NCBI GenBank assembly: GCA_910577205.1
Contig: CAJTMA010000007.1
Location: 5,373 to 69,372, forward strand
From: an uncultured Alphaproteobacteria bacterium
Lineage (GTDB): Bacteria; Pseudomonadota; Alphaproteobacteria; RF32; CAG-239
DNA: 64,000 bases
Direction: 5' to 3'
The notes under the pieces are model-generated. The model worked only from the letters and a program-made list of their open reading frames with translations. It made no database searches and was not told the origin of the DNA. A program made the translations under genes and the position numbers. The number at the start of each line of letters is the position of its first letter. Position 1 is the first letter of the stretch. Below are positions 18,915 to 32,600 of the stretch, one piece after another.

Positions 18915-19316
18915 TCAGGGTTTGAGCGTAAAGGCCTCCTTTACCGAACCGTTAAAGGTTACCGAAACACCTACGCCTTCCCGAGCACCCAATACAGTTA
19001 CCACAATCGTATGAGTGACAAAACGTCCGGGGATAAACTCATCCGCAACATAGGTTTTCTCAAAGCGGTAAGTTTTAGGCGTATCCCGCGGAATATACTG
19101 ATCTGCTACCCACGCACTGTTTTTATAACGGTAAACTTGCAAATATGTCTCATGGGATTCTATTCGCAAATTTCCCCACTGCAGCGCTACAATTTTATTG
19201 CTGTTGTACTTTTCAGTGGTTACCGTGGTTTGTTTAGACGTGGTATAAATCTGTTGGGCGAGCATACAAGATGCTCCGGCGATGATTAACATCATCGTAA
19301 CTAAAAACTTTTTCAT
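18915..19316 (-). CDS. small secreted protein (133 aa, signal peptide)
   Basis: MKKFLVTMMLIIAGASCMLAQQ signal peptide. No recognisable domain. Confidence 0.4.
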   Translation of the reverse strand: MKKFLVTMMLIIAGASCMLAQQIYTTSKQTTVTTEKYNSNKIVALQWGNLRIESHETYLQVYRYKNSAWVADQYIPRDTPKTYRFEKTYVADEFIPGRFVTHTIVVTVLGAREGVGVSVTFNGSVKEAFTLKP

Positions 19317-19336
19317 AATAATAAAAATTTAAATGG

Positions 19337-19804
19337 TTATTCTAAATCATATTCTTCGGCAATGTGGTTTCCTGCCATTTTGAAGACGACAGCTTCACAG
19401 TCAGCAACGATAATGCCTACCTTGTATGAAACCGTACCGCCGGGAACTTGGGCTTTGGCCGTGTAAATCTGTTCGCTGTCATACAACTTGGAAATCAGAG
19501 CCAGACGGCTGCGACTGCCATTGTATTGGCGATAAACATCTACACGATCTTTACTGTTGACGATAACCATATCGCCGATAGTAATTTTTTTGACTTTTCG
19601 GCCGACTACCCGAACTTCTGTTGTGCCGCGGCTGTATGTTTTCACAGGGGATAATCTTTTCAAATCATTCCCGGTATTAACAACACGACGGCAAGCTTCT
19701 TCAGCTCGGTTCATCTGGCCGATAAAACGGTCAAACTTGTCTTGAGCCGAAAGCGAGAAAATGCTGAGCATCAGTCCCGCCAAGAGAAATAATAGTTTTT
19801 TCAT
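19337..19804 (-). CDS. small secreted protein (155 aa, signal peptide)
   Basis: MKKLLFLLAGLMLSIFSLSAQ signal peptide. Tandem to the previous ORF. Confidence 0.4.
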   Translation of the reverse strand: MKKLLFLLAGLMLSIFSLSAQDKFDRFIGQMNRAEEACRRVVNTGNDLKRLSPVKTYSRGTTEVRVVGRKVKKITIGDMVIVNSKDRVDVYRQYNGSRSRLALISKLYDSEQIYTAKAQVPGGTVSYKVGIIVADCEAVVFKMAGNHIAEEYDLE

Positions 19805-19876
19805 TTTGTAAAATAATTAGTGTTTATGCATAAATTTTAGCACTAATTATCTTATTCGTCCAGTTTTTTAGATAAA

Positions 19877-20707
19877 TCAATCTGTCAAAGAAAAAGCTGG
19901 GGCTGAGTAGTCTGCTTCTGAATTGTTTTCTGCGCCAATCAACAGCGCTGCTGCTTTGTATCCGGCTTGACGCAAATGCACAGCCCCTTGCCCATCAGCC
20001 TCTAGAGAGTTGCCGATACATAGAATTTTTCCCTGCGCAGGTAATTGTTGAAGTATTTGCCGGTAAGATGCTATATGCGGCTTGCCAAATTCCATCACCT
20101 GCCCACCCAATGAACGGTAATAAGCAAGGATGCTTCGGTTTGACAACACCTCGTGATTATTAATCAGCATTTTATCCGCAAAGGACGGATTACCACAATA
20201 TATGACTTTTTCCTGCTCTCTGGCTTGATGTAAAAAATCAGCAAAAGGTTCTAAAGACGCCGCAAAGCCGAGGTTAGAAAGACCGGGAACATTAATCAGA
20301 TTTTCGGGACGCAGATAAGCCAGAGGCAGCCCCGGAATATCCAGGTAAATAAATTCAGCCATTGTCATCTCCGGCATGAAGATTAATCCCGGCAAAGGGC
20401 GGCTACCAAACAAAAAATAACTAAAATATCCCTGCTGTTGTACATGAGCCATGCAAAGACCGAAAGAGGTGTAAAACAGAAAACCTTTATCTGCCCATTT
20501 CCGCCAATGTGGATTGACAAAATGAGCGGCTGGAAGCAAAGACGAATTGTCATAAATAATAACTTGCTTCCCCTGCTCTGCCAAACCAGCCAATGCGTCC
20601 TCAGCTCCCGGATAAAACGCGCCATCGGGAGATGTCAGAACTCCAGAGCTGCCAATGATAAACGTATCATACGCAGCAAACAAATCAGACAAGTGCGTAT
20701 CAGCCAA
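19877..20707 (-). CDS. HAD-superfamily hydrolase (subfamily IIA-like)
   Basis: 276 aa. N-terminal DxD-like motif (YDTFIIGSSGVL) and the overall HAD IIA pattern. Moderate confidence. Confidence 0.5.
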   Translation of the reverse strand: MADTHLSDLFAAYDTFIIGSSGVLTSPDGAFYPGAEDALAGLAEQGKQVIIYDNSSLLPAAHFVNPHWRKWADKGFLFYTSFGLCMAHVQQQGYFSYFLFGSRPLPGLIFMPEMTMAEFIYLDIPGLPLAYLRPENLINVPGLSNLGFAASLEPFADFLHQAREQEKVIYCGNPSFADKMLINNHEVLSNRSILAYYRSLGGQVMEFGKPHIASYRQILQQLPAQGKILCIGNSLEADGQGAVHLRQAGYKAAALLIGAENNSEADYSAPAFSLTD

Positions 20708-20780
20708 TTATAGATTCTCCCCCTTCTGTATAGACGGGAAGTGTAACACGCGGCTATCAAAAAGTAAACGGGAGAAATGA

Positions 20781-20812
20781 AAAAGCCCCTTTGGGGAAAG
20801 GGGCTTTTTGTT
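20781..20812 (-). terminator. intrinsic terminator downstream of ORF 20930-21184
   Basis: aaaagcccctttggggaaaggggcttttt hairpin with T-run. Confidence 0.5.
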
Positions 20813-20929
20813 CATATCGGGTTGACAGGGAGTGAAAACCCGAATCTGACGTTTTAGACGTCATAGGTACGGTGTTTGTAATGAGCTGATGATGTTGAAA
20901 ATAAACAAAAGCATTGTTTTTTCTCCAGA

Positions 20930-21184
20930 TTACAAACTATAAACGTGTTTACGATAATTTTTTAATGAGGTCTGATACAGCAAAACCGGTGAAGCTTTTT
21001 TCATCCAATCTGCTCCATAAACCTGATTCAACTTAGTTTTATATTCGCGAGTCATTAATTCATCATAAATAGCCTGTTGTTCGTCAGTCAGGCGCGCAAA
21101 AGCATCCTGAAAAGAAATTTTATTTTTTTGGGCAATAACCAAACATAAAGTTTCAATTTCTTTTACAGATTGAGCATTCAGCAT
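20930..21184 (-). CDS. hypothetical protein (84 aa)
   Basis: ORF only. It sits at the left edge of the AT-rich island. Confidence 0.3.
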   Translation of the reverse strand: MLNAQSVKEIETLCLVIAQKNKISFQDAFARLTDEQQAIYDELMTREYKTKLNQVYGADWMKKASPVLLYQTSLKNYRKHVYSL

Positions 21185-21353
21185 TTGTTTAAGTCCTTCT
21201 TTAAGTTGAATAACAAATGCAATATACCACTTTTTGACAATTTCGTCAATAATGTGTTTTTGTCAAATTTGTGAAATTTTTGTTACATAAAGCATCCTAA
21301 TTGAGCTTTGCTGTTTCTTTTCTCGGGTTCTCATCCTACTTGTTCAGACATTA

Positions 21354-21387
21354 AAAAACTCCCCTCTGCTAGAGAGGGGAGTTTTTT
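21354..21387. terminator. bidirectional intrinsic terminator (aaaaaactcccctctgctagagaggggagtttttt)
   Basis: Perfect 9 bp GC-rich stem flanked by A6 and T6. It marks the left edge of the AT-rich island. Confidence 0.65.
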
Positions 21388-21618
21388 AATGGTGATGCAC
21401 TTTGCGAACCCATCGAACTGGTCTAACTGTTCGCAAAATGTTGTATATAAACGCCTTGAGATAGGAATATACTTCTGCGAATCAACCGATTTTTCTCTAG
21501 AATCACTTTTCTCGTATCTCGAACTTATCTAAATTCTAAAATATTTTTTAATATATCAAGAGTAAAATAATTCCTGTATTTTTTTGCATATTTCATAAAT
21601 TTATTTTAACAAATTCGG

Positions 21619-22005
21619 TTACATAATTTTTAAATCTTGTTTTATATTACTTATAAGTTTTTCTATTTTATTATAAATATTTTCATCTGGAGTAGTTTGT
21701 ATTTCTTTTTGCAATCTTATGTATTCTTTTGCGATTTTTGAGGATGCATATAACTTAATATAAGGAACTGTGGAATTTATTTTTTCTTTTACCTCATTGC
21801 AAGGATCGCCTTTAAGAAGCCATTTCAAATCTGTACCTATGGAAATAAGGCAATCAATAGCTTTTAAGTATGTTTCTTCCCGTTTCCTAAGGATATATAT
21901 TTCTTGTTCTCTGGCACTTTTTAGATAATCAATAAACAATGTAAAAAAAGCTGTAATAAGTGAACCAATTATTACACCTATCAAACCAATTATAGCCTCA
22001 TCCAT
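21619..22005 (-). CDS. hypothetical membrane-anchored protein (128 aa, one N-terminal TM)
   Basis: N-terminus IIGLIGVIIGSLITAFFTLFIDYL. Located 30 bp downstream of the NucC-like gene in AT-rich DNA. Confidence 0.4.
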   Translation of the reverse strand: MDEAIIGLIGVIIGSLITAFFTLFIDYLKSAREQEIYILRKREETYLKAIDCLISIGTDLKWLLKGDPCNEVKEKINSTVPYIKLYASSKIAKEYIRLQKEIQTTPDENIYNKIEKLISNIKQDLKIM

Positions 22006-22035
22006 TTCTTTATATCTCCGATATTTAAAATTTTA

Positions 22036-22743
22036 TTATTCAGAAAATCCATTAAAATAACGAGGAATATCCATAGCAGGAACCGTTCCCATTTGCTGTA
22101 ATTGATTTAATAATTCCATAAAAAATGATAATAGATAATGCTCTTTATTATTGCACCAAATGTACTTTCCATTATGGAATTTCCAGCAACAATCTTCAGC
22201 ACAACATCCAATATTCAATAATCCCACATTGTTATTTGAAATATTTTGTTTGATAAGGCATTTTTGCCATGAGTTTCTAGTCGTTAATAAACCACCTAAA
22301 ATAGTATGAGGTGTCCTTCCTTGAGTTTTTATACCAGCATTAAAAATAGAAGCACTTGTACGTTCTAAACTCCGAGCCGATGATACTTTTTTCATAGCGT
22401 ATTCAAAATTTTGTTTATTTAGCTCAGGCTTTACTTCAAATACCGCATAAACACTTTCAGCTGGAATAAAAACATTGTCACGACAGTGGAATAAAAAAGG
22501 TGAGAAATAATTATCAAATATTACAATATCTAATTGCTCACTAAGATTATTATTACAGTCAATTATGAATGCTTTTTTTACATCATAACGTTTAGGTAGA
22601 TGGTCTCTAAATAAATTAAGCCATTGTTCTTCAGTGTAATTTCCATTTTCTCCGGGATGCTCTATAGGATTTTGTATCAGAGAAGCTTTCATAGCTTCTT
22701 GTTTTCCCTTAAATAAGGTTTCCAATGTGACAGAACTCACCAT
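22036..22743 (-). CDS. PD-(D/E)xK restriction-endonuclease-fold protein, NucC-like candidate CBASS effector nuclease
   Basis: 235 aa. Putative catalytic segment LDIVIFDNYF...PAESVYAVFEVKPE (D..D...E-V-K) at residues about 72-105, with a Cys-rich C-terminal half. Start overlaps the upstream nucleotidyltransferase gene by 7 nt. Confidence 0.5.
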   Translation of the reverse strand: MVSSVTLETLFKGKQEAMKASLIQNPIEHPGENGNYTEEQWLNLFRDHLPKRYDVKKAFIIDCNNNLSEQLDIVIFDNYFSPFLFHCRDNVFIPAESVYAVFEVKPELNKQNFEYAMKKVSSARSLERTSASIFNAGIKTQGRTPHTILGGLLTTRNSWQKCLIKQNISNNNVGLLNIGCCAEDCCWKFHNGKYIWCNNKEHYLLSFFMELLNQLQQMGTVPAMDIPRYFNGFSE

Positions 22744-23525
22744 ATAATATCTCTCCAGTTTAATCCACCTAAAATAGTCAATCTATTATTTAGGCAATTA
22801 ACCGCTGTTTTTTGAATTATTAGCTTTTCTTGGCGGTTTAACTCATTTGAAATGATATTAGCAGAATTTCCAGGATCTATTATGATATCATCAATAAAAT
22901 CAGTAGCAAAATAATTTAAAACTTTAGTGAATTTTTCCTCAATATTATAAGCCCTATTATATTTTAAGGCATTTATTGTTGCAAATTCAATTAATACAGA
23001 AGGGCATTCAATAGAATGACAATTTCTCCATATTTTAACTAATTTAATAACATCCTGATAAAAAGATTTTTGTATAGTATTGATTTGTAAGCTGACATTA
23101 GTCTGTGTCCGTCGTCCCGTTTTGGATTGATATAGCCAATGGTAACTAGAACCATAAGGCTGTGCTTTAGCTGGGACTAAATCGACATTAATTGGTTGAC
23201 CATTCTTATTTAAATCAATACCAATAGAAACATTTTGTTTCCTTGGATGAAAATTTTTTTCAACCATTTTATTATATAATGTATCGTAAATATCTTCACA
23301 GCTAGTTGGACACTCGTGTTTTATAGATATAAAAATATCAATATCCGATTTTCCTTTTATGGAAGTTCCTTTAGCAGAGGAACCAGATAAAAATATATCT
23401 CTGATATAAGTATTACCCCATTCAGTTAGAGTAGGACGCAAAAATGCTAACACTTCATTATAGAGGTAAGTGTTATTTACATAATATTTTTGTAATACTT
23501 CGTTTAGATAAGACATTTGCTTCAT
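22737..23525 (-). CDS. minimal CD-NTase/SMODS-like nucleotidyltransferase (candidate cyclic-oligonucleotide synthase)
   Basis: 262 aa. GSSAKGTSIKGKSDIDIF fits GS-x11-DhDh (Pol-beta/cGAS-DncV-like NTase motif). The third acidic residue lies in NVDLVPA. A downstream LVKIWRN helix follows. Confidence 0.55.
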   Translation of the reverse strand: MKQMSYLNEVLQKYYVNNTYLYNEVLAFLRPTLTEWGNTYIRDIFLSGSSAKGTSIKGKSDIDIFISIKHECPTSCEDIYDTLYNKMVEKNFHPRKQNVSIGIDLNKNGQPINVDLVPAKAQPYGSSYHWLYQSKTGRRTQTNVSLQINTIQKSFYQDVIKLVKIWRNCHSIECPSVLIEFATINALKYNRAYNIEEKFTKVLNYFATDFIDDIIIDPGNSANIISNELNRQEKLIIQKTAVNCLNNRLTILGGLNWRDIIW

Positions 23526-23604
23526 CCTAATGATATTAATCGTATATATTTATATTATTAAAATAAAGATACAAGCTTCAAATCTTTTTTGAGAGGTGTT
23601 GTAT

Positions 23605-23982
23605 CTAGTCATCTAGACCGTTACTTTTGAGGAATTCTTTGAGCCTTTCCCGGTTTTCATTTTCCTGATCACCCTTATAATAAATCTCAATAAATGAAAT
23701 CAGTTGTTTTTCTTCTTCCCAAACAAAAATAACCCGAATGCCAGATGCAGCTCCTTTTCCCTTTAACGACATACATGAGAATTTACGAACTTTATTTGCT
23801 GTATAATTTTCTCCGCAACACCCTTCTATTGGAACAATGGCATTAGAAACTATTTTATGAATATACAAGGCTTCAATACTGGCCCTTTTCATAATTTCAA
23901 AATCATTAGGTAAAGTTCTGAAGCGTTTTGTGAGTTTCTTAAAATCTTTATCAAATTCAGGAATAGTCAGATAGTTAAGCAT
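23605..23982 (-). CDS. RelE/ParE-superfamily toxin (PanT-like candidate)
   Basis: C-terminal GIRVIFVWEEEKQLISFIEIYYKGDQEN matches the RelE/ParE hallmark. Start chosen at MLNYLTIPEF. The ORF track extends further upstream, so the start is uncertain. Confidence 0.55.
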   Translation of the reverse strand: MLNYLTIPEFDKDFKKLTKRFRTLPNDFEIMKRASIEALYIHKIVSNAIVPIEGCCGENYTANKVRKFSCMSLKGKGAASGIRVIFVWEEEKQLISFIEIYYKGDQENENRERLKEFLKSNGLDD

Positions 23983-24748
23983 ATTCTTCGTCATACTCCC
24001 GTTGAGATGTCTCGGCAGTTCTATAAAAAACGCTTTCATATTCAAGAATTTCCTTGTCCTTTGCAATAATCCAAGGAATGTCTTTATGGGAAAAATCAGA
24101 TAACTCTTTACCTGTTTTATCTGATAGACGTTCTAGTTCTTTATCAATATGTCTTAATTCTTGGGCAGAAAGCAAAGATAAATTAGGCTCCTTAATTGGA
24201 AGATATTTCGTTTGATCTTTCTTAAAATATTTTGTTTTAACTTCTTCTAGTTCTCCGTTTTTTTCCATTTCCTGAATAAGTTTTGCAAAATCCACAGGAG
24301 TAGGACCGTAAGTGTTTTTAATATATTTTAACCCCATAAGCTGTTCCTCATAAAGCTCATAATAGTCAAAATCAATAAAATATAACAACTTATAAATAAC
24401 GGTTTGACCAACATTAGGTTTGGCACCAACTTTATTAAGAATATAAAGTAAAACTTGTTTAAATTTTGTAATATTTTCCCGAGGAATATCAATACGAATA
24501 TCGTTTTGAGTGGAGGAAACAACTTTTTCTATAATGTTATATGTCGGCCTGTTTGGCATTTTATTATCAATAATACACGAGTAATCGACATCAAAAATAT
24601 CCGCTAATTTTTTAATGATATCGATGGGAAGATTGTTTTCTCCATTTTCATATTTGCTTAAGGTTTGGCGCGTTATTCCTAACTGAGACGCCAAATCGTC
24701 CTGTGAGATATTTTTTTCGTCTCTCAGGACTTTCAAAATTTTAAACAT
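23975..24748 (-). CDS. HTH-XRE plus Panacea (DUF4065) domain antitoxin-like protein (PanA-like)
   Basis: 257 aa. N-terminal HTH_3 (LASQLGITRQTLSKYENGEN). Central KLLYFIDFDYY...YGPTPVDF resembles the DUF4065/SocA-type signature. Confidence 0.6.
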   Translation of the reverse strand: MFKILKVLRDEKNISQDDLASQLGITRQTLSKYENGENNLPIDIIKKLADIFDVDYSCIIDNKMPNRPTYNIIEKVVSSTQNDIRIDIPRENITKFKQVLLYILNKVGAKPNVGQTVIYKLLYFIDFDYYELYEEQLMGLKYIKNTYGPTPVDFAKLIQEMEKNGELEEVKTKYFKKDQTKYLPIKEPNLSLLSAQELRHIDKELERLSDKTGKELSDFSHKDIPWIIAKDKEILEYESVFYRTAETSQREYDEEYA

Positions 24749-24791
24749 TTTAAGCTCCTATTTATTATTTATTTGAATATAATACAAAAAC

Positions 24792-24815
24792 GTTAAAATG
24801 TCAATATATTTTAAC
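24792..24815. promoter_or_regulatory. inverted repeat gttaaaat-N8-attttaac upstream of the HTH-Panacea gene (putative autoregulatory operator)
   Basis: Perfect 8 bp arms in the promoter region, with a ttgaatataat -10-like element nearby. Confidence 0.3.
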
Positions 24816-24942
24816 ACATAGGTGTAAGCGGAGTTTAACTTGAATTTGTAGATAAAAAACTCAACCAATCTTTAGGAATGCAAATACTTTTTAATTTTTT
24901 ATATCCGTATTGTATCAAATAATATATTATAAAAAATCTTTC

Positions 24943-26337
24943 CTATTCATCATTTGATAAATATTCCATTTTTTGTTTTAAGTATGGAATTATTCTTTGA
25001 GCATCTATTCCAAATCTACTATCAAGATCATCATGCAGTTGATATACCTTATGATAATCAGTTAGTTCTTTTAGAATTTCATCTTGTGTTATTGGCGTAT
25101 TGGGATTAGTTTGCTTTTCGATATTAAGTTGAGTATTTTTTTCTTTCAACTCATTAATTTTTTTGCATAGATCATTAAAAGGAATCATAGCCATCATTAA
25201 ACAATGTTTTAAACATTTTATATTTTGATCATTTGCATTAACTATTTTTTCAAGTTCCTTCCATAAATCATAAAAAGATATTCTTTCTATGTTTTGGTAG
25301 ATTGAGTATTTTTTATGTTTTAAAACCATTAAGAGTGCAAGTATAGGGCTCATTTTTAAATAATTATCAGGTACAACTTTTTGTATAATTGCAATATCTG
25401 TAAAACATTGGCTTATTTCTCGTAACGATAAATTATACCCATCTGCCAAAATAGAAAAATAATCACAATAACAATTCCATCCGTTTATTATACTATTAGC
25501 ATCATAAGCTTTTTGATTTTTTATACCAAATTTATTCATTAATACTTTGCAAAAAGCTTTTCTATTAGGTTTGGGTAAATGTAATTCTAAATCAACAAAT
25601 CTTTTAAGATAGCCTTCACTATCCATATCAGAACCATATAAAGCTGAAATAGTATGTTTTAATTGTGTCCTATCAATTCCTAAAATAAATATGACATTAG
25701 GGATATCAAATATATGTTTAATTGTTTCTAATACTTCAACAGCATATGTTGGACGACATCTTTCTAATTCATCGACAAATATAAACAGTTTATTATCTTT
25801 TATTTTCTCACAAAGCGTATTTCGGAAATCATTGATAAGTTTTTGTTTGGCTTCATATTGTTCAATTTTATTATCGGGATTTACAATTTGTAATAGCTTA
25901 TCTAATGTACTTTCAGGTCCGCCAACACATTCAATAATCAAATTGCCACAATTTTTTATAGACTTTAATAGTCCTATACTTTTTTCTTTGAGTATTGTAC
26001 CAATACTTTCTGGGAATGAATCTATAATTGTTTTTATAAATGGAACCATAGGGTCTTTTTCCCAATCTGTATTCCATGCATTAAAAAAAGCAACCTGATA
26101 TCCATCTTTTTTTAATTGTTCTCGCCATCTGCTCAGAAAAAAACTTTTTCCCATGCCATATGAAGCATCTACAGAAACGACAAAAGGTTGTTCAACATCC
26201 GCTAATATGCGGGTAAAATCTTCCGCAACTTCTTTGCGGTTAAGAATATCATCTTTCCAAATATCTTGTGTATCAATTTCTAGATCCTGAATTTTTTGGC
26301 AAATACTCATATCGTTTCCTTTTATTGCTATCAACAT
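24943..26337 (-). CDS. KAP-family P-loop NTPase
   Basis: 464 aa. Walker A SYGMGKSFF followed by the FNAW motif typical of KAP NTPases, then a Walker B region IFVDELERC. Confidence 0.7.
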   Translation of the reverse strand: MLIAIKGNDMSICQKIQDLEIDTQDIWKDDILNRKEVAEDFTRILADVEQPFVVSVDASYGMGKSFFLSRWREQLKKDGYQVAFFNAWNTDWEKDPMVPFIKTIIDSFPESIGTILKEKSIGLLKSIKNCGNLIIECVGGPESTLDKLLQIVNPDNKIEQYEAKQKLINDFRNTLCEKIKDNKLFIFVDELERCRPTYAVEVLETIKHIFDIPNVIFILGIDRTQLKHTISALYGSDMDSEGYLKRFVDLELHLPKPNRKAFCKVLMNKFGIKNQKAYDANSIINGWNCYCDYFSILADGYNLSLREISQCFTDIAIIQKVVPDNYLKMSPILALLMVLKHKKYSIYQNIERISFYDLWKELEKIVNANDQNIKCLKHCLMMAMIPFNDLCKKINELKEKNTQLNIEKQTNPNTPITQDEILKELTDYHKVYQLHDDLDSRFGIDAQRIIPYLKQKMEYLSNDE

Positions 26338-26409
26338 CTGTTAAATTAACACAAAATTTTATCTGATAAACTTTAATTTATTAGATATTAAAAGCTTTGT
26401 AGCTAAAAC

Positions 26410-27715
26410 AGCACCAGATTTGGTGCTGTTTAATAATAGATATTCCTTTGAAATACAATAAAATTCTCTTGTAAATATTAATGCAAAGGAGAATAAAAAT
26501 GGGAATGTCAAAATTTACTCAGGAAATTAAAAGTGAAATTGCAGAAAAATACAAAAAAGGAGCGGATGTTATTTTGTTGTGCCAAGAATATGGCATCTCC
26601 AGAAGTTACCTATACAGGATTGTCAAGCTAAAAAAGAAACATCGAAATCCGCATCAAAAAAGCACATATACCCTCTGGGATATAGAATTTATGAAAAGAG
26701 AGTTGATGACGCTTAAAACAGAAAATGAGATTTTCAGAAAAAGCGGTTGTGGATTGAGTGCTTCTAATGATGAGAAAATAGCCGTAGTTGAAAAGTTAAA
26801 AGATGAATATTCCATACATATCATTTGTAAAACGTTAGGATTACTAAAATCAACATATTATCACAGAATAATGAGGGCTCCGGAAAAGAAATGGTATGAA
26901 ATTCGCAATGAAACGCTTAAGCCCGAGATTCTTGAAATATTTAAAGAGAGCAAAGAACGTTTCGGAGCTCCCAAGATAAAAATAAAATTGGAAGAAAAGG
27001 GGATCGCGGCAAGTATTGAAACTGTTGCGAAACTAATGAAAGAAATGGGATTGATTTGCAAACAGAATTGTGTAAAGAAACATAATCCGACAAAAAACTA
27101 TTATGCATCTCCTCTAAACATATTAGAACGAAATTTCAATCCGGATGCTCCAAACAAGTGTTGGGTAAGCGACATCTCTTATATGAATACTGATGGAGGA
27201 TGTTGTTATATCTGTGTTGTGTTGGAGCTTTTTTCAAGAAAAGTTATTGCATATAATGTTTCTGACAGAATTGATACAGATTTGGTTTTAACAACTTTTG
27301 ACAAAGCGTATTTTGACAGGGGCAATCCTAAAAATCTGATTTTTCATTCAGACCAAGGAACACAATATACTTCTTCTAGATTCCAATATGCCTTACAGAA
27401 GAACAATGTTCGTCAATCGCTTTCAAAACCGGGAACGCCGTATGACAATGCGGTAATGGAACGATTTTTCAAATCGATAAAATATGAGTGTTTAAAACAT
27501 AAAACCTTTCAAAACATAGATGAATTGAGGACAACTGTTGAAGAATATATAAATTATTACAACGGAATGAGACCGATGAAAACGCGGGAAAATCTGCCTC
27601 CTAATGAATTTGAACGGCGATATTTTGAGAAAACGGCGTGTTAAGATTATGATTTAAACGAATAAAGCTCCGTAAAACGGAGCTTTATTTTGTAGACCTA
27701 GTCTACTAAAAAGAG
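26410..27715 (+). mobile_element. IS3-family insertion sequence (approximate boundaries)
   Basis: Contains a single fused transposase ORF. Terminal inverted repeats could not be defined by eye; both flanks share a ttgtag motif. Confidence 0.35.
26481..27644 (+). CDS. IS3-family transposase (fused OrfAB, HTH plus DDE/rve integrase core)
   Basis: 387 aa. N-terminal HTH and leucine zipper (ELMTLKTENEIF), HTH_21-like region (ERFGAPKIKIKLEEKGIAASIETVAKLMKEMGL), and a DDE core (WVSDISY, HSDQGTQYTS, MERFFKSIKYE). Confidence 0.8.
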   Translation: MQRRIKMGMSKFTQEIKSEIAEKYKKGADVILLCQEYGISRSYLYRIVKLKKKHRNPHQKSTYTLWDIEFMKRELMTLKTENEIFRKSGCGLSASNDEKIAVVEKLKDEYSIHIICKTLGLLKSTYYHRIMRAPEKKWYEIRNETLKPEILEIFKESKERFGAPKIKIKLEEKGIAASIETVAKLMKEMGLICKQNCVKKHNPTKNYYASPLNILERNFNPDAPNKCWVSDISYMNTDGGCCYICVVLELFSRKVIAYNVSDRIDTDLVLTTFDKAYFDRGNPKNLIFHSDQGTQYTSSRFQYALQKNNVRQSLSKPGTPYDNAVMERFFKSIKYECLKHKTFQNIDELRTTVEEYINYYNGMRPMKTRENLPPNEFERRYFEKTAC

Positions 27716-27740
27716 TCTAAAAAAGCCTCTTACTTACAAA

Positions 27741-27816
27741 TGGTGAGCGCGTCGGGATTCGAACCCGAGACCCTTTGATTAAAAGTCAAATGCTCTACCA
27801 GCTGAGCTACGCACCC
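27741..27816 (-). tRNA. tRNA-Lys (anticodon TTT)
   Basis: Manual fold: acceptor GGGTGCG/CGCGCTC, D-arm GCTC..GAGC, anticodon stem TTTGA/TCAAA with loop CTTTTAA, T-arm TCGGG-TTCGAAT-CCCGA, and an encoded 3' CCA. Confidence 0.85.
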
Positions 27817-27988
27817 GTTAATTGAGATGAACTCAAACAACGAAGTGATATATAGAAGATAAAAAACACTTAGTCAACATAAAAAATGAAATTTATGCAA
27901 AAAAAATAAAATGTAGTATATTTGTTAATAATTATATGCTATCGTTTTTTCAAATTTTGATATTTTAACCAATTGAGGCAGGTAAATT

Positions 27989-28303
27989 ATGGTTCAAGCT
28001 AATAATTCCGAACAAGAAGGCAAATATGATATTTTGCAGAATGCAGCCGGCGAAATCCTAATTATCATCAAATATCATCAAGGAGGCCCGGAAAATCCGC
28101 GTTTCGTATATGATGGCGGTTCAACAGCTCTGCTTTATCGCAGCCGTGAAAGCGCAATTATGTTGGATAATATTAATGATAAAGCCAAAATGCCTTTGAA
28201 ATCCGTCAACGAGTTGTTGATTGTTGAAATTGAGGACGATGATGTGGCTCGTGAATATAAAGTTCCGGTCAGACATATTCAAAGCTTGGATAGATTTCTT
28301 TAA
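27989..28303 (+). CDS. hypothetical protein (104 aa)
   Basis: ORF followed by a strong terminator. No recognisable domain. Confidence 0.4.
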   Translation: MVQANNSEQEGKYDILQNAAGEILIIIKYHQGGPENPRFVYDGGSTALLYRSRESAIMLDNINDKAKMPLKSVNELLIVEIEDDDVAREYKVPVRHIQSLDRFL

Positions 28304-28310
28304 GCCATCT

Positions 28311-28456: not shown

Positions 28457-29056
28457 TTATACTCTTTTTTGCAATCTTGCTGGAACACCATAATAAATTC
28501 CCGGTTCAATCAAATCAGACACTACAACTGAACCAGCACCTATAATTACGTTATCACCTACGTTTATATCCGGCTTAATTGTTGTTCCTGCTCCAACGAG
28601 AACATTGCTGCCTATGCGGCATTTTCCACAAATTGTGCTATTAGGAGCGATATGCGTATAGTCACCAACAATTACCTGATGTTCAACAACAGCTCCGGTA
28701 TTTATGATGCAGCCTTTTCCGATTTGGGTTTCAACAGCGCAATAAGCGTTATGCGCGATAAAGCTTCCCTCACCTATTTGGCAACTGTCAGAAATATACG
28801 CATCTGGTGCAATGATTGTGACACTATTTAATGCACCGTAATCTGCTCTGGTCTGATTATCTCCTGAAGCGACATGAACAGCAGAAATATCTTCCAGCAG
28901 TTCAGTAATAACCGGAAAACCAAGAACTGTTTCACCAGGACGCCCGTATTTATCAACAAAGACTATCGATTTTGCACCGTTTGAGATTAAGACATCTGCG
29001 ACACTTCGCGCATGACCGCCACAACCAATTATGTAAGCTGTTTCAGATTGTTTCAT
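28457..29056 (-). CDS. NeuD/PglD-family hexapeptide-repeat sugar N/O-acetyltransferase
   Basis: 199 aa. N-terminal Rossmann-like YIIGCGGHARSV followed by left-handed beta-helix hexapeptide repeats. Confidence 0.7.
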   Translation of the reverse strand: MKQSETAYIIGCGGHARSVADVLISNGAKSIVFVDKYGRPGETVLGFPVITELLEDISAVHVASGDNQTRADYGALNSVTIIAPDAYISDSCQIGEGSFIAHNAYCAVETQIGKGCIINTGAVVEHQVIVGDYTHIAPNSTICGKCRIGSNVLVGAGTTIKPDINVGDNVIIGAGSVVVSDLIEPGIYYGVPARLQKRV

Positions 29057-29148
29057 TTATAGGGACTCCTTTTTGTCAAATCAGCCCCTATAAAATATAA
29101 AAATAAGCACTTACAAACAACAATTAAATAAAGAATATCCCCGTTATC

Positions 29149-30282
29149 TTAAACTTCCTTTATCAAATTTGCTAAATAGTTTCCTAAGGTTTCCATATTG
29201 GTTTGACTTTTAGCAATCAAGTCGCGAACGGGAATGGGCATATAAGCTTTAGCGACAATCGAACGCATTTGGGCACAAAGGTCTTGAGCATCTCCTGCAC
29301 GAAAATAGAGGATACGATCATAGACAACACCAAGGTTGGTTTTAATATCTGAAACGACAACAGGCACACCTAAAGCTGCGGCATCATAAACAGAACCTCC
29401 GCCTGGTCCGCCTTCAAACAGGGTTGTCTGAATGACAGCTGTTGCCCCTTTCATAATTTGCAATTGTTCTTCTTTGGGAATTAAGCCTAAGAATCTGACT
29501 TTATCTTCAATATTCAGCTCTTTTAGCAAATCTTTCAGTTCCCTGATATATTCCGGCCGGCGTCCGTCTTCCATTGCCCCGGTGAAGATAAATTCCATAT
29601 CTGCATCTGTTTTTAAATACTCGGCAAATGCACGAAAAGCTGTCGGATGGTCTTTATGAATCCAAAACTGGTTAGACATCATAAAATAACGCTTGGGAAG
29701 ATGATATTTTTTTATTTGCCGAGAATAATCTTTGTAATAGCATAAATCAATCTTCGGTGTATAAGGCAATACACAGATTTTCTCCGGAGAAGCCTTAAAA
29801 AATTTTATCAAATCATCTTTTACAGTTTCGGCATTAACGATAATTTTCTGCTGACAATCGACCACATTCTGAAAATAGGCATCTCGGGCTTTAATCTCAT
29901 CATCAGAAAAAAATTCCGGCAAATAACAATGCTGGCAATCATAGAGATAGGCAATAGTCTTGATATCGAGCAGCTTTGTTCCCATATAAGGTAAAACGAC
30001 ATCTAGATTATTTTTCAAAAACGCGCTAGCAAGAGATGAGAAATAAATAAATTTAATATTTTTAAATTCTTTAAAAATGCTTTTAGCTTGCCGTATTTCA
30101 CGCTGCTTAACAAAAAAACGTTTTATTCCCTTGAAATTCCGATAATTAATTACATCAAGCATAATAAATAATTCTAACTGTTGTTTTTTGGCAACACTTT
30201 GCAGAGAAAAAATAATATGTTTCAAAAAATCATTGGCACCGGAAAGGCCGGTAAAATTTTGCGTCAAAATGCCAACACGCAT
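29149..30282 (-). CDS. glycosyltransferase (GT1/GT4-like, GT-B fold)
   Basis: 377 aa. C-terminal E-x7-E-like region TTLFEGGPGGGSVYDAAALGVPVVVSD. Confidence 0.55.
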   Translation of the reverse strand: MRVGILTQNFTGLSGANDFLKHIIFSLQSVAKKQQLELFIMLDVINYRNFKGIKRFFVKQREIRQAKSIFKEFKNIKFIYFSSLASAFLKNNLDVVLPYMGTKLLDIKTIAYLYDCQHCYLPEFFSDDEIKARDAYFQNVVDCQQKIIVNAETVKDDLIKFFKASPEKICVLPYTPKIDLCYYKDYSRQIKKYHLPKRYFMMSNQFWIHKDHPTAFRAFAEYLKTDADMEFIFTGAMEDGRRPEYIRELKDLLKELNIEDKVRFLGLIPKEEQLQIMKGATAVIQTTLFEGGPGGGSVYDAAALGVPVVVSDIKTNLGVVYDRILYFRAGDAQDLCAQMRSIVAKAYMPIPVRDLIAKSQTNMETLGNYLANLIKEV

Positions 30283-30292
30283 TTCATATCTC

Positions 30293-30757
30293 CTATAGTC
30301 TTTTTATGCAAGATAAACGATCCGTTACAAAACCTAATTTTTGATACAGGGAAACTGCAGTTTTATTATCTGCCGACACATCAAGCGATATCTCGGCAAT
30401 TTGTAACTCTGCGGCCAAATCCATTACCGCTGCCATTAATTGTTTTCCTAATCCTTTGCCCGAAAATTCAGGAAGAACAGCAATATGGTTTAGATGTAAA
30501 CGCATTATCCCAAAACAATCTTTGGGGTAGACATAAGCCAAGCCGAGCATTTCCCCTGCGTCAAATAAGCCGAAAACAACAGCTTCTCCGGCGTTCAGAA
30601 AATCTGCGCATTGCTTTACTTTGTCCGCAATGAATTCGTTAGAAAAGACAGCGGCAGGAAATGAATGTTGAAAAGACTCTAAAAAAAGTTCCCTTATTGT
30701 TTCATCATAAACAGAAAAATCTTCTGATTTCAATTTTCTGATATTTATACCAGTCAT
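30293..30757 (-). CDS. GNAT-family N-acetyltransferase
   Basis: 154 aa. Acetyl-CoA binding motif VLPEFSGKGLGKQLM. Confidence 0.7.
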   Translation of the reverse strand: MTGINIRKLKSEDFSVYDETIRELFLESFQHSFPAAVFSNEFIADKVKQCADFLNAGEAVVFGLFDAGEMLGLAYVYPKDCFGIMRLHLNHIAVLPEFSGKGLGKQLMAAVMDLAAELQIAEISLDVSADNKTAVSLYQKLGFVTDRLSCIKRL

Positions 30758-31458
30758 ACCAGCTTTCCTTTGGTAACCATATTTTTGACGGTGTCAACAT
30801 CATTAAACATCAGCACATCGATAATTGACAAGAACGGAACAAACTCTTTCCCAAATTGGGGATAGGCTTCTATTTCTTTTTCTAAGAATTTTAAAGTTAA
30901 ATTTTGCGCCGCAAAATCTTCTCGGTTATAGAGATGCTGCCCGTTTATGTTGTTAATGTATGTTTCCCCATTTAATTTTTGGGTGATGTCAATGATTTTG
31001 CTTTGAGCATTAACATCACGGTTATAATCAATATCTGATGAAAACAACAATTCCGTAGTTATTCCCAGACGGGCGTTAAGGTGTCTGAGGCTATACTCAA
31101 TTAATTTCGGAACATTTCGGTTATCATAATTGACGACATCTTCAATGAGCGAAAATGTTTCCTTAAAATACGGCGCATGGCGATAGGCATTGGCAATCTT
31201 ATTTAAGTAGTCAGCTTTAAGCTCCGGATTTGACGTAAACGACACTTGGTTGATTAAATCCCGAGAGCCATGCTTATCGACAGCCAACGTTACTTTCGTT
31301 TCTTCACCATTTTGCAAAATCGTATGGCGATTAATCCAGCCTCTTATCCATTGAACATCATCATAAAGAACATATACATCCACTGCATTTATCAGTTGAA
31401 AGTAGCCAATATAAGGAAAAAGATATGGCTGCATTACGGCAATTTTTTTATTTGGCAT
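30754..31458 (-). CDS. WbqC-family protein (O-antigen sugar modification)
   Basis: 234 aa. N-terminal IAVMQPYLFPYIGYFQLI is characteristic of WbqC-like proteins. Confidence 0.65.
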   Translation of the reverse strand: MPNKKIAVMQPYLFPYIGYFQLINAVDVYVLYDDVQWIRGWINRHTILQNGEETKVTLAVDKHGSRDLINQVSFTSNPELKADYLNKIANAYRHAPYFKETFSLIEDVVNYDNRNVPKLIEYSLRHLNARLGITTELLFSSDIDYNRDVNAQSKIIDITQKLNGETYINNINGQHLYNREDFAAQNLTLKFLEKEIEAYPQFGKEFVPFLSIIDVLMFNDVDTVKNMVTKGKLV

Positions 31459-32542
31459 AAAATTCTCCTATTTTAGCGCAAATATAATCCACGTCTTTTT
31501 CTTCCAATGCCGGATAGGAGGGCAGATTAATACCGCGCAACGCAATATCTTCAGCTACGGCATGGCGTTCATATTTCTGCGCATAGACCGGCATGGTGTG
31601 AATCGGGTAAAATGTCGGACGGGTTTCAATTCCCTGCTCTTTCAGATAATTACGCAGTTCTTCGCGCTCGCTTTCACTATCGGCCAGAATTGAGCACATC
31701 CACCATGTATGGCGAACCTTGCCGACAGCGTCATGGAATTTGACCGGAAGATTTTTTAATTTTTCTTTATACCATTTGGCAACATTTTGCTTGCGGGCAA
31801 TAAAATCTTCCACCTGCTCAAACTGAGCCAAGCCAATGGCAGCCTGAATATTAGTCATCCGGTAATTATAGCCCATGGTATCATGCCAATATTCCCGATA
31901 TTTGGCCAAGCCCTGTCCTTTGAAATGCACCAAACGACCATACAAATAATCACTATTGGTTAAAACCATGCCGCCCTCACCGCAAGTAATGGTTTTATTG
32001 CCAAAGAATGAGAAGCAGGCGACATCGCCGAAAGAACCGACTTTTTTGCCTTTATATTCCGAGCCAATAGCCTCGGCGCAATCTTCAATAACAAAGAGAT
32101 TATGTTCTTTGGCAATAGCCATAATTGTATCCATATCGCAGGGATGCCCATAGAGGTGGACAACCATAATCGCTTTGGTTTTCGGCGTAATTTTGGCTTT
32201 GACATCTTCCGCATCCAACTGCCAAGTATCCGCCCGGCTGTCAGCAAAGACAGGCGTTGCGCCGACTTGCAAAATCGGATTAGCGGAGGCTATGTAGGTA
32301 AATGTCGGCACAATAACCTCATCCCCTTCTCCCAAACCCAGAGCAACCAAAGCCAAGTGAATGGCAACCGTTCCGTTGCACACGCCGGTGCCGTGTTTGA
32401 CGTCGATATAACCAGAAAAGGCTTTTTCAAAATCATTGACGAATTTTCCCTTTGATGAAATCCATGTTGAATCAAGGCATTCGTTCACATACTTTTTTTC
32501 ATTTCCGGTCAAGCTCGGCTGATAAACGGCATATTTATACAT
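31448..32542 (-). CDS. DegT/DnrJ/EryC1/StrS-family PLP-dependent sugar aminotransferase
   Basis: 364 aa. Fold-type I aminotransferase pattern with the FSFFGNKTITCGEGG (active-site Lys) region. Confidence 0.85.
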   Translation of the reverse strand: MYKYAVYQPSLTGNEKKYVNECLDSTWISSKGKFVNDFEKAFSGYIDVKHGTGVCNGTVAIHLALVALGLGEGDEVIVPTFTYIASANPILQVGATPVFADSRADTWQLDAEDVKAKITPKTKAIMVVHLYGHPCDMDTIMAIAKEHNLFVIEDCAEAIGSEYKGKKVGSFGDVACFSFFGNKTITCGEGGMVLTNSDYLYGRLVHFKGQGLAKYREYWHDTMGYNYRMTNIQAAIGLAQFEQVEDFIARKQNVAKWYKEKLKNLPVKFHDAVGKVRHTWWMCSILADSESEREELRNYLKEQGIETRPTFYPIHTMPVYAQKYERHAVAEDIALRGINLPSYPALEEKDVDYICAKIGEFYAK

Positions 32543-32600
32543 TCAGATATTCCTCCTAAAAGCTATACTATAAAAAAGCAGGATCAGTTTTTATCATCTA

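What the first reader, a model, noticed from the sequence alone, without database searches (positions are those of the whole stretch)
21354..27816. AT-rich genomic island of about 6.4 kb abutting tRNA-Lys(TTT), packed with defence/addiction genes and an IS3 element
Between a strong bidirectional terminator (21354-21387) and the 3' end of tRNA-Lys (27741) the sequence becomes visibly AT-rich, with long A/T runs and poly-Asn/Lys/Ile codons. It encodes only accessory functions: a membrane protein, the NTase plus nuclease pair, a PanAT-like TA, a KAP NTPase and a fused IS3 transposase. tRNA-Lys is a classical integration site. No integrase remains and I could not find a convincing direct repeat of the tRNA 3' end at the distal edge, only a weak tggtga...gcgaaccc similarity near 21390. 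This suggests an old or decayed island.
Basis: seen in the sequence. Interest (0 to 1): 0.6.

Follow-up and report, generated by a model that had tools for sequence, protein, structure and literature searches.

The report
Modular defence islet at tRNA-Lys
This is a real, recently acquired 6.4-kb island of anti-phage genes inserted at the very end of a tRNA-Lys gene, and its "IS3 transposase" is a conserved end module that sits beside tRNA ends in many related gut bacteria, so it may be the island's integration machinery.

Summary
Window 21388-27740 has 29.9% GC against 43.8% elsewhere, and strains of the same species have an empty site. The island is flanked by an 8-bp direct repeat, AATGGTGA, which occurs nowhere else on this strand. 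That repeat is the tRNA-Lys 3' end plus 2 bp.

The cargo is intact:
- a two-gene CBASS (short CD-NTase plus NucC);
- an HTH-Panacea antitoxin with a RelE/HigB2-fold toxin;
- a KAP NTPase (PADLOC PDC-S20);
- a small membrane protein;
- an intact, fused IS3-family transposase.

The reading "old, decayed island with no integrase" is not supported. At least the KAP region is 99.7-99.8% identical in other species. Islands with different defence cargo share the same two ends: a roughly 175-bp left arm and a 1.3-kb transposase module that stops 2 bp before the tRNA.

Among transposase relatives at 55% identity or more, 15 of 21 lie about 100 bp from a tRNA-Lys 3' end. Among ordinary IS3 relatives it is 1 of 51. 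Homologues at 41-56% identity abut tRNA-Glu, tRNA-Ala and a cut tRNA 3' end read by eye as tRNA-Thr.

Whether this transposase performs the integration is inferred, not shown. I found no significant terminal inverted repeats.

The parts
21354..21387 (.). Bidirectional intrinsic terminator. This is the original terminator of tRNA-Lys, now separated from the tRNA by the island.
   Evidence: In empty-site genomes a copy of this hairpin lies directly against the tRNA 3' end.
21388..21395 (+). Left copy of the direct repeat AATGGTGA. It duplicates the tRNA 3' terminus (TCACCA) plus 2 bp.
   Evidence: There are only two occurrences on the + strand in 64 kb, at 21388 and 27739. Homology to the empty site ends at 21383.
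21396..21570 (.). Conserved non-coding 'left arm' of the island family. It contains CGAACTGGTCTAAC and CGAACTTATCTAAA repeats and the inverted repeat CACTTTGCGAAC / GTTCGCAAAATG.
   Evidence: It is 74-87% identical (depending on the stretch aligned) to the left ends of islands with other cargo: L022/L025, L023, L127, L202-L209 and L210.
21619..22005 (-). A 128-aa protein of unknown function with one N-terminal transmembrane helix.
   Evidence: Kyte-Doolittle maximum is 2.45 at residues 5-23. No family match. It is not conserved next to homologous CBASS pairs.
22036..22743 (-). NucC-type endonuclease, the CBASS effector (235 aa; D72, E103, K105).
   Evidence: PADLOC NucC effector model 2e-79. 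Pfam DUF6602 2e-31. PDB 6uxf Vibrio metoecus NucC 3.6e-49. Motif positions.
22737..23525 (-). Short CD-NTase, the CBASS cyclase (262 aa; G48-S49, D61, D63, D115).
   Evidence: PADLOC cyclase PDLC00803 2.9e-73. Closest solved structures are CdnC of E. coli MS115-1 (2.6e-5) and a chain deposited only as 'Nucleotidyltransferase' (6p82). The pairing with a DUF6602 gene is conserved in distant homologues.
23605..23982 (-). RelE/HigB2-fold toxin (125 aa).
   Evidence: Profile against PDB hits HigB-2 at 1.4e-3. The AlphaFold2 model has pLDDT 93, and the top Foldseek hits are RelE 1wmi and HigB2 8a0x. Several homologues are named RelE by JGI.
23975..24748 (-). HTH-Panacea (PanA-type) antitoxin (257 aa). 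It overlaps the toxin gene by 8 bp. A promoter-like site lies at 24804-24776.
   Evidence: Pfam SocA_Panacea 9e-17 and HTH_3 2.8e-16. Promoter-like site matches 11 of 12 positions. The same two-gene cassette occurs inside a prophage, with the toxin 69% identical.
24943..26337 (-). KAP-family P-loop NTPase (464 aa), matching the PADLOC candidate single-gene defence system PDC-S20.
   Evidence: Pfam KAP_NTPase 5.8e-38. PADLOC PDC-S20 1.3e-99. It is 99-100% identical at the protein level in L123, L126 and L127, which come from other species.
26412..26426 (.). Palindrome CACCAGATTTGGTGC at the left edge of the transposase module. It holds a third TGGTG copy, at 26422.
   Evidence: This is the boundary between variable cargo and the conserved module. 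It is conserved even beside a 56% transposase homologue (L211).
26412..27738 (+). Conserved transposase module, the right-hand end of the island family. It ends in ...CTTACTTACA.
26499..27644 (+). Intact IS3-family DDE transposase in a single fused ORF (381 aa; D225, D285, E321).
   Evidence: NCBIfam transpos_IS3 scores 331 bits against a cut-off of 160, covering model positions 2-369 of 369. Pfam rve 2.3e-25. Motif positions.
27645..27738 (+). Conserved 94-bp right end. It holds a hairpin at 27664-27686, the palindrome GTAGACCTAGTCTAC at 27692-27706, GAGTCTAAAAAAG, and a terminal CA.
   Evidence: Alignment of 15 loci. The same motifs lie next to tRNA-Glu in L211.
27739..27746 (+). Right copy of the direct repeat AATGGTGA, overlapping the tRNA 3' end.
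27741..27816 (-). tRNA-Lys(UUU), intact, the integration target.
   Evidence: ARAGORN. Rfam tRNA model 72.6 bits.

Best explanation
Window 21388-27740 is a horizontally acquired 6.35-kb defence islet. It sits between tRNA-Lys(UUU) and the tRNA's own terminator. It is bracketed by an 8-bp duplication of the tRNA 3' terminus (AATGGTGA).

It belongs to a modular family found in uncultured gut Alphaproteobacteria. Members share three parts:
- a conserved left arm of about 175 bp;
- an exchangeable block of defence genes;
- a conserved 1.3-kb right module that encodes an intact IS3-family DDE transposase and ends 2 bp from the tRNA's 3' end.

The cargo here is a two-gene CBASS, a toxin-antitoxin pair, a KAP NTPase and a small membrane protein. 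In the CBASS, the CD-NTase would make a cyclic oligonucleotide on infection, probably cyclic tri-AMP, which would activate the NucC DNase and kill the infected cell. The toxin-antitoxin pair is an HTH-Panacea antitoxin with a RelE/HigB2-type toxin.

Shown: the insertion polymorphism, the junctions, the gene identities, the shared ends, the reassortment of modules between species, and the specific association of this transposase clade with tRNA 3' ends.

Inferred: the islet integrates as a unit at the sequence TGGTGA. I put about 45% on the transposase module itself providing the integration or targeting activity. One possible route is insertion of its CA-ending right end 2-3 bp from a TGGTG sequence, which also occurs at the module's own left edge. 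Cargo would then be swapped by recombination between tandem or related islets.
For: Composition.

Empty sites, plus at least four other occupants of the same site in one species.

Unique 8-bp direct repeat at the two junctions.

Same architecture in other genomes. In L202 the order is terminator, TGGTGA, left arm, cargo, transposase module, TGGTGA-tRNA-Lys, with different cargo and different core neighbours; within the 8.6 kb of L202 that I scanned around the island, TGGTGA occurs only at the two junctions. L210 shows the same left junction, left arm and transposase module, but its contig ends before the tRNA.

Module reassortment:
- the same cargo (99.7-99.8%) occurs with transposase modules 83-91% identical and core flanks 69-75% identical;
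- the same module (99.5%) occurs with different cargo in one host;
- the same module (98.8%) occurs in hosts whose flanks are 75% identical.

tRNA association: 15 of 21 relatives at 55% identity or more abut tRNA-Lys, against 1 of 51 IS3 relatives below 45%. Homologues at 56%, 50% and 41% abut tRNA-Glu, a cut tRNA 3' end (read by eye as tRNA-Thr) and tRNA-Ala, with the right-end motifs conserved in L211.

No other recombinase or remnant is present.

The exact transposase protein is found only at this one site.

Gene identities.
Against: There is no significant terminal inverted repeat between the left arm and the right end, or within the transposase module alone. Observed alignment scores equal the shuffle means in most loci tested. 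IS3-family elements normally have such repeats and make 3-5-bp target duplications, not 6-8 bp (my own knowledge).

The conserved short GTCTA-type motifs at the two ends are mostly in direct orientation. That looks more like the arm sites of a tyrosine integrase.

The KAP cargo is 99.7-99.8% identical where the transposase module is only 83-91% identical. So the cargo has moved without the transposase gene at least at times.

Islands without this transposase (L001, L004/L005) join the tRNA at the same nucleotide.

About half of the homologous transposase genes carry frameshifts.

Full islands were seen for only three members: the window, L202 and L210.
Confidence: 0.75

Rival explanations
1. 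The islet is a recombinase-less, satellite-like element. A tyrosine or serine recombinase from a larger element that uses the same tRNA-Lys site integrates and excises it in trans. The left arm and the 94-bp right end would be the attL and attR arms. The IS3-family transposase would be a linked passenger.
For: Large serine recombinases occur in other occupants of the same site (L001, L023). Those occupants join the tRNA at the same nucleotide. L022, L023 and L025 carry the same left arm. The two arms together span about 270 bp, carry repeated GTCTA-type motifs and share a 6-8-bp core, which resembles a lambda-type attP (my own knowledge). No inverted repeats were found. The cargo has moved without the transposase gene.
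Against: No tyrosine integrase was seen in any occupant that I examined. Serine recombinases do not use long arms (my own knowledge). The right-end motifs stay linked to the transposase down to 56% identity and across a change of tRNA target. The window, L202 and L210 islets have no other recombinase, yet they sit in different species.
Confidence: 0.3
2. The 1.3-kb transposase module is an autonomous IS3-family insertion sequence with strong target specificity for tRNA 3' ends. The defence cargo and left arm are a separate element that later landed beside it, for example at the TGGTGC at the module's left edge.
For: The module is a coherent unit from 26412 to 27738 and is conserved down to 56% identity. 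It has a terminal CA, and contexts outside tRNAs define its right end exactly (L122, L145). A third TGGTG copy lies at 26422. The break in identity between cargo and module is sharp, at about 26412-26432. IS3-family elements with target specificity are known, for example IS1397 in REP sequences and IS911 next to sequences resembling its own ends (my own knowledge).
Against: No site carrying the module alone was found. Every left neighbour examined is a defence-type gene. The empty site differs from the occupied one by the whole segment including the module. No inverted repeats were found.
Confidence: 0.25
3. One reading: an old, decaying island that lost its integrase and was later hit by an unrelated IS3 element.
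For: No tyrosine or serine recombinase gene or remnant is present. Related occupants of the site do show truncated recombinase genes (L022).
Against: All seven genes are intact. The cargo is 99.7-99.8% identical across species. The transposase holds the same position and orientation in 15 of 21 related loci, against 1 of 51 controls. An exact direct repeat is present.
Confidence: 0.07

Closest known systems
tRNA-linked genomic or defence islands and defence hot spots (for example the E. coli defence-island hot spots, PMC10121019; P4-like and PICI-type satellites)
   Same: Deviant GC, insertion at a tRNA 3' end, flanking direct repeat, presence/absence polymorphism, several alternative occupants of one site, and exchangeable defence cargo.
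   Different: There is no tyrosine or serine integrase and no replication or packaging genes. The tRNA-proximal position that an integrase gene normally holds is taken by an IS3-family DDE transposase. The direct repeat is only 6-8 bp.
IS3-family insertion sequences, including target-specific members (IS1397/ISKpn1 in REP sequences; IS911 insertion next to sequences resembling its own ends). These examples are from my own knowledge.
   Same: The transposase matches the NCBIfam IS3 model over its full length with an intact DDE triad. The module is about 1.3 kb with a terminal CA. It lies 2-3 bp from a fixed sequence.
   Different: There is one fused ORF in place of orfA/orfB with a frameshift. 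There are no significant inverted repeats. It is single-copy per genome, always beside a tRNA 3' end, and always accompanied by defence cargo.
IS1202-family elements that insert 5 bp from XerC sites of dif/pdif (PMC10132070)
   Same: An IS-encoded DDE transposase found in a fixed orientation a few bp from a conserved host sequence.
   Different: A different transposase family and a different target. Those elements have clear 24-26-bp inverted repeats.
Integrative elements driven by DDE transposases (TnGBS, ICE6013). From my own knowledge.
   Same: A DDE transposase takes the place of an integrase on an element that carries cargo.
   Different: Those are large conjugative elements with other transposase families and other targets, for example upstream of promoters. 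Here there are no transfer genes.
CdnC-HORMA-TRIP13-NucC CBASS of E. coli MS115-1 (type III; PDB 6P80, 6P7O)
   Same: The NucC effector matches at 3.6e-40. Among solved structures the cyclase is closest to CdnC.
   Different: No HORMA, TRIP13, Cap2 or Cap3 genes are present. The cyclase is short (262 aa). The architecture is the minimal two-gene (type I) form.

Membership tests
Classical tRNA-integrated genomic island | Base composition deviates from the host genome | tested here: met
   GC 0.299 against 0.438. No other window of the same length falls below 0.388.
Classical tRNA-integrated genomic island | Presence/absence polymorphism with an empty site in close relatives | tested here: met
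   In L019-L021, L024 and L026 the flanks are 97-99% identical, with only 172-338 bp between the left junction (the end of left-flank homology) and the tRNA.
Classical tRNA-integrated genomic island | Insertion at the tRNA 3' end with a flanking direct repeat of that end | tested here: met
   AATGGTGA at 21388 and 27739, the only two copies on the strand.
Classical tRNA-integrated genomic island | Encodes a tyrosine or serine site-specific recombinase | tested here: not met
   No Pfam hit. tblastn with two serine recombinases from the same site and one tyrosine integrase gave nothing better than E = 0.5.
CBASS (type I, two-gene) | CD-NTase with the GS...DxD...D catalytic motifs | tested here: met
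   G48-S49, D61, D63 and D115. PADLOC cyclase 2.9e-73. The NCBIfam CBASS_cyclase_a score is only 71.6 bits, below the cut-off of 200.
CBASS (type I, two-gene) | Adjacent effector gene | tested here: met
   NucC overlaps the cyclase gene by 7 bp. PDB NucC match 3.6e-49. The pairing is conserved in three distant homologues.
CBASS (type I, two-gene) | No Cap2/Cap3 or HORMA/TRIP13 accessory genes | tested here: met
   None was found among the island proteins in Pfam or PADLOC.
CBASS (type I, two-gene) | Makes a cyclic oligonucleotide and protects against phage | not testable with these tools
   Needs biochemistry and phage challenge.
Panacea (PanA) toxin-antitoxin pair | Antitoxin with a Panacea domain next to a small toxin gene | tested here: met
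   SocA_Panacea 9e-17. The toxin has a RelE/HigB2 fold. The genes overlap by 8 bp. The cassette recurs elsewhere.
Panacea (PanA) toxin-antitoxin pair | The toxin is neutralised by the antitoxin | not testable with these tools
   Needs a co-expression assay.
IS3-family insertion sequence | IS3-type DDE transposase | tested here: met
   NF033516 at 331 bits against a cut-off of 160. D225, D285 and E321 are present.
IS3-family insertion sequence | orfA and orfB joined by a programmed -1 frameshift | tested here: not met
   One continuous 381-aa ORF. A6G heptamers exist, but no frameshift is needed.
IS3-family insertion sequence | Terminal inverted repeats of 20-40 bp (TG...CA) | tested here: not met
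   The right end does finish in CA, but alignment scores of the two ends equal the shuffle means in most loci tested. Only a 9-bp match (TGTAAGTAA) was seen in some relatives.
IS3-family insertion sequence | Several copies at varied sites | tested here: not met
   The exact protein and its 81% relative occur in one context each. 15 of 21 relatives lie beside tRNA-Lys.
KAP NTPase defence candidate (PADLOC PDC-S20) | KAP P-loop domain with Walker A and Walker B motifs | tested here: met
   Pfam 5.8e-38 and PADLOC 1.3e-99. GMGK64S and VDELE at residue 188. A defence function has not been tested.

The most novel reading that the evidence does not exclude
A clade of IS3-family DDE transposases (41-100% identical) has become specific for the 3' ends of tRNA genes (Lys, Glu, Ala and probably Thr). 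In this reading it acts as the integration module of small modular defence islets, or as a resident platform that captures defence cassettes beside the tRNA. That would be a DDE-transposase counterpart of integrase-driven tRNA islands, or of integron-like cassette capture.
Probability: 0.4. Interest if true: 0.75.

Novelty: new variant of a known kind. Interest (0 to 1): 0.6.

Why it matters
A defence island at a tRNA hot spot is ordinary. The unusual part is that the only recombinase is an IS3-family transposase, and that it keeps the same position beside tRNA 3' ends across species and across several tRNAs. The defence cargo next to it is exchanged between species at near-identity.

If the transposase does the targeting, this would be a new way of building site-specific defence islands. 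It would also be a compact, single-protein, sequence-specific DDE insertion system, active in a poorly studied group of uncultured gut Alphaproteobacteria.

It also gives a practical rule for finding defence cargo in metagenomes: look to the left of this transposase module.

Tried and rejected
- A species-level search with the flanking HAD protein in genome contigs found no relative. PriA then placed the host only as an uncultured gut alphaproteobacterium, best identity 84%.
- Repeat search inside the island gave only chance-level repeats apart from the terminator.
- Inverted-repeat searches for the transposase module and for the whole islet were not significant.
- Recombinase remnants were sought with tblastn and none was found.
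- Rfam found only the two tRNAs in the window.
- The 128-aa membrane protein has no family match and is not conserved beside homologous CBASS pairs.
- The KAP gene of another occupant of the site (L022) is only 27% identical, so that island is not a direct relative of this cargo.
- The 165-bp units at the empty site occur only there among the sequences held, and ARAGORN does not call them as tRNAs.
- The plasmid and phage collections hold nothing resembling the islet beyond short KAP matches.
- In viral contigs there are only two loci, each with a truncated 62% transposase relative.
- Three literature searches found no description of this transposase-tRNA association.
- The idea that the islet is a decayed derivative of the 80-kb serine-recombinase element was set aside. 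Only the left arm is shared, and intact islets with the same two ends exist in other species.
Full report
**Observation.** The composition shift is real and large. The segment 21384-27740 has 29.9% GC against 43.8% for the rest of the window. None of 180 other windows of the same length falls below 38.8%. GC3 of the island genes is 0.17-0.32 against 0.41-0.53 for core genes. The tetranucleotide distance is 0.47 against at most 0.18 elsewhere. tRNA-Lys(ttt) lies at 27741-27816 on the minus strand, with its 3' end towards the island. The hairpin at 21359-21379 scores as a terminator on both strands.

**Is it an island?** I looked up the exact flanking proteins in public assemblies, and this gave the decisive comparison. 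In L019, L020, L021, L024 and L026 the 84-aa gene (window 20930-21184) and the 104-aa gene (27989-28303) lie about 780 bp apart. blastn aligns window 19000-21383 and 27741-28304 to these loci at 92-99% identity, with only 172-338 bp between the two blocks. Other strains carry quite different content at the same place:
- an element with a large serine recombinase, DUF2924 and HU (L001);
- a region of about 80 kb with a serine recombinase, ParB and a two-partner-secretion haemagglutinin (L005 and L023, which are on one contig);
- an island with HATPase_c_3, Dcm, a truncated resolvase, another KAP NTPase and Fic (L022, L025).

The site is therefore a hot spot with at least five states.

In empty sites a copy of the terminator hairpin lies directly against the tRNA (...GGGGATTTTTTTAT|TGGTGAGCG). 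In the window the terminator is followed by AATGGTGA and then island DNA. The same octamer spans the island-tRNA junction. It occurs nowhere else on that strand in the 64 kb. It consists of the last bases of the tRNA (TCACCA) plus two more.

**Host.** PriA from the window is at best 84% identical to MAGs labelled uncultured Alphaproteobacteria, "Azospirillum sp." and Proteobacteria bacterium CAG:495, from human and animal guts. The window also encodes flagellar proteins, RNase R and a polysaccharide gene cluster.

**Cargo.**
- *CBASS.* The 262-aa protein is a short CD-NTase (PADLOC cyclase 2.9e-73; nearest solved structure CdnC). Its GS, DxD and D motifs are intact. The overlapping 235-aa gene is a NucC endonuclease (PDB 6uxf 3.6e-49) with D72, E103 and K105. 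Homologues outside this lineage are at most 45% identical, all are 250-280 aa long, and three that I examined keep the cyclase-DUF6602 pair. No HORMA, TRIP13, Cap2 or Cap3 gene is present, so this is a minimal two-gene CBASS. From what is established for NucC systems (my own knowledge), the likely signal is cyclic tri-AMP and the outcome is abortive infection through DNA degradation.
- *Toxin-antitoxin pair.* The 257-aa protein is an HTH-Panacea antitoxin. The 125-aa protein that overlaps it by 8 bp has no Pfam hit. Its profile matches HigB-2. A confident model (pLDDT 93) finds RelE and HigB2 as the top folds. Its nearest relative is the same two-gene cassette inside a prophage.
- *KAP NTPase.* The 464-aa protein matches PADLOC candidate PDC-S20 at 1.3e-99.
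- *Membrane protein.* The 128-aa protein has a single N-terminal hydrophobic helix and no known relatives in the libraries searched.
- *Transposase.* It matches the NCBIfam IS3 model over its full length as one ORF, with an intact DDE triad.

**The transposase is not an incidental IS.** The exact protein occurs only in this one context. A metagenome scan found relatives at 60-95% identity. I restricted the count to relatives at 55% or more with a complete C-terminus and enough downstream sequence. Of these, 15 of 21 have a tRNA on the opposite strand about 100 bp after the stop codon, and in every case it is tRNA-Lys. L140 shows a degenerate tRNA-Lys followed by tRNA-Thr. Among 51 IS3 relatives below 45% identity, only one has a tRNA nearby, and it directly abuts tRNA-Ala. 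Homologues at 56% and 50% abut tRNA-Glu(ctc) and a tRNA 3' end (TGGTGCC) respectively, again with KAP or restriction-modification cargo on the other side.

The 94 bp after the stop codon are conserved in all of these loci. They hold a hairpin, the palindrome GTAGACCTAGTCTAC, the motif GAGTCTAAAAAAG and the terminal ...CTTACTTACA. They end 2 bp before TGGTGA. The few non-tRNA contexts show the same end followed by TGGTGA-like sequence. In L127 it is followed by TGGTGA and then a left arm, which is a tandem arrangement of islands. The left edge of the conserved module is the palindrome CACCAGATTTGGTGC at 26412. This palindrome is kept even beside the 56% homologue.

**A family with two conserved ends.**
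- L202-L209 come from a different species, with other core genes on both sides. The order there is terminator, TGGTGA, left arm (83% identical to window 21390-21569), HATPase_c_3-Dcm-HTH-Vsr cargo, transposase module, TGGTGA-tRNA-Lys. Within the 8.6 kb I scanned around that island, TGGTGA occurs only at the two junctions.
- L210 has a left arm after ...TTTCTTTACAA-TGGTGA. It then carries Dcm, HATPase_c_3 and Fic cargo and the transposase, and another island lies to its left.

Modules reassort:
- The KAP region is 99.7-99.8% identical in L123, L126 and L127. Their transposase modules are 83-91% identical to the window's. The core flanks of L123 and L126 are 69-75% identical; L127 has no comparable flank.
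- L125 and L126 share host and transposase module but not cargo.
- L126 and L202 share the module (98.8%) but not the host.
- L123 and L139 share the host but not the module.

Every left neighbour of a transposase module that I examined is a defence-type gene. Within the window's own lineage all island-bearing contigs are identical. One sample pair joins the island to a different right flank and a different polysaccharide cluster.

**Mechanism: what is shown and what is inferred.** Shown: precise insertion polymorphism at TGGTGA, conserved ends, horizontal spread, and a specific link between this transposase clade and tRNA 3' ends. Not shown: which enzyme performs the integration.

For the transposase:
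- it is the only recombinase on three complete islets in different hosts;
- it holds the tRNA-proximal position that an integrase gene normally holds;
- its flanking sequences stay with it across a change of tRNA target.

Against the transposase:
- there are no significant inverted repeats;
- the repeat is 6-8 bp, where IS3 elements make 3-5 bp;
- the cargo has moved without the transposase gene;
- islands without this transposase join the tRNA at the same base;
- about half of the homologous genes carry frameshifts.

Two rivals remain open. One is mobilisation in trans by a recombinase of a co-resident element. The other is an autonomous tRNA-specific IS beside separately acquired cargo.

**Verdict.** The finding is confirmed as an island. 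"Decayed" and "no direct repeat" are wrong. The "IS3 element" is the most interesting part. The island itself is an ordinary kind of thing. The transposase-tRNA architecture appears to be an undescribed variant, judged from three literature searches that found only analogues such as the IS1202 family at dif sites.

Noticed in passing
L019:9473-9810 (empty site); the corresponding point in the window is 21383/21384: Between the 84-aa gene and tRNA-Lys, empty-site genomes carry tandem units of about 165-170 bp. Each unit ends in a copy of the terminator hairpin and begins with a tRNA-3'-like stretch (TGTGTCGGGATT). Copy number is 2 in L019-L021 and L024, 1 in L026, L022 and L023, and 0 in the window. 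They may be scars of earlier integration and excision events.
   Followed up: partly
window 28457-33434: The first part of the polysaccharide cluster to the right of the tRNA (NeuD-type acetyltransferase, GT4, GNAT, WbqC, aminotransferase, GT2) has lowered GC (0.33-0.45). In other strains a different GT2/GT4/epimerase set replaces it. This is a second variable region next to the hot spot.
   Followed up: partly
L012, L027, L029, L030 (samples ERR5031971 and ERR5031972): These contigs carry the island and a left flank identical to the window (0 differences). Their right flank has 8 differences in 564 bp and the alternative polysaccharide cluster. This is a recombinant with a breakpoint at or near the tRNA.
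   Followed up: partly
window 20930-21184 and 27989-28303: Two small conserved genes of unknown function (84 and 104 aa, GC 0.33 and 0.39, no family hits) bracket the hot spot in the window's species. The 104-aa gene accompanies tRNA-Lys in many related species, at 58-92% identity.
   Followed up: partly
L122:2741-4134, compared with L022: In L122 the transposase module (93% identical) is not beside a tRNA. It abuts ...ACA|CCTTGGTAATG inside the remnant of a serine-recombinase gene of an L022-like island. So the module has also landed at a TGGTGA-like sequence within another island.
   Followed up: partly
L211:5330-5400: Beyond the 5' end of the tRNA-Glu that the 56% transposase homologue abuts, on the side away from the transposase, there is a second, partial tRNA-like 3' half (TTGGTGAACCGAAAGAGAGTCGAACTCG). 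It is possibly a displaced attachment-site remnant.
   Followed up: no
window 26553, 26630, 26656: Three A6G heptamers lie in the 5' part of the fused transposase ORF. In classical IS3 elements such a motif drives -1 frameshifting. Here a frameshift would truncate the protein, not fuse two ORFs.
   Followed up: no
window 10750-11904: A dGTP triphosphohydrolase gene in the core region. It scores highest on housekeeping dGTPase models and also matches the anti-phage dGTPase family, below that family's cut-off.
   Followed up: no
window 24943-26337; L212:2307-3875; L211:2222-3400: KAP-family NTPase genes recur next to this transposase clade, even beside the 50% and 56% homologues. They are absent from several other members (L202, L210, L125). 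I did not test whether this is more than common defence cargo.
   Followed up: no
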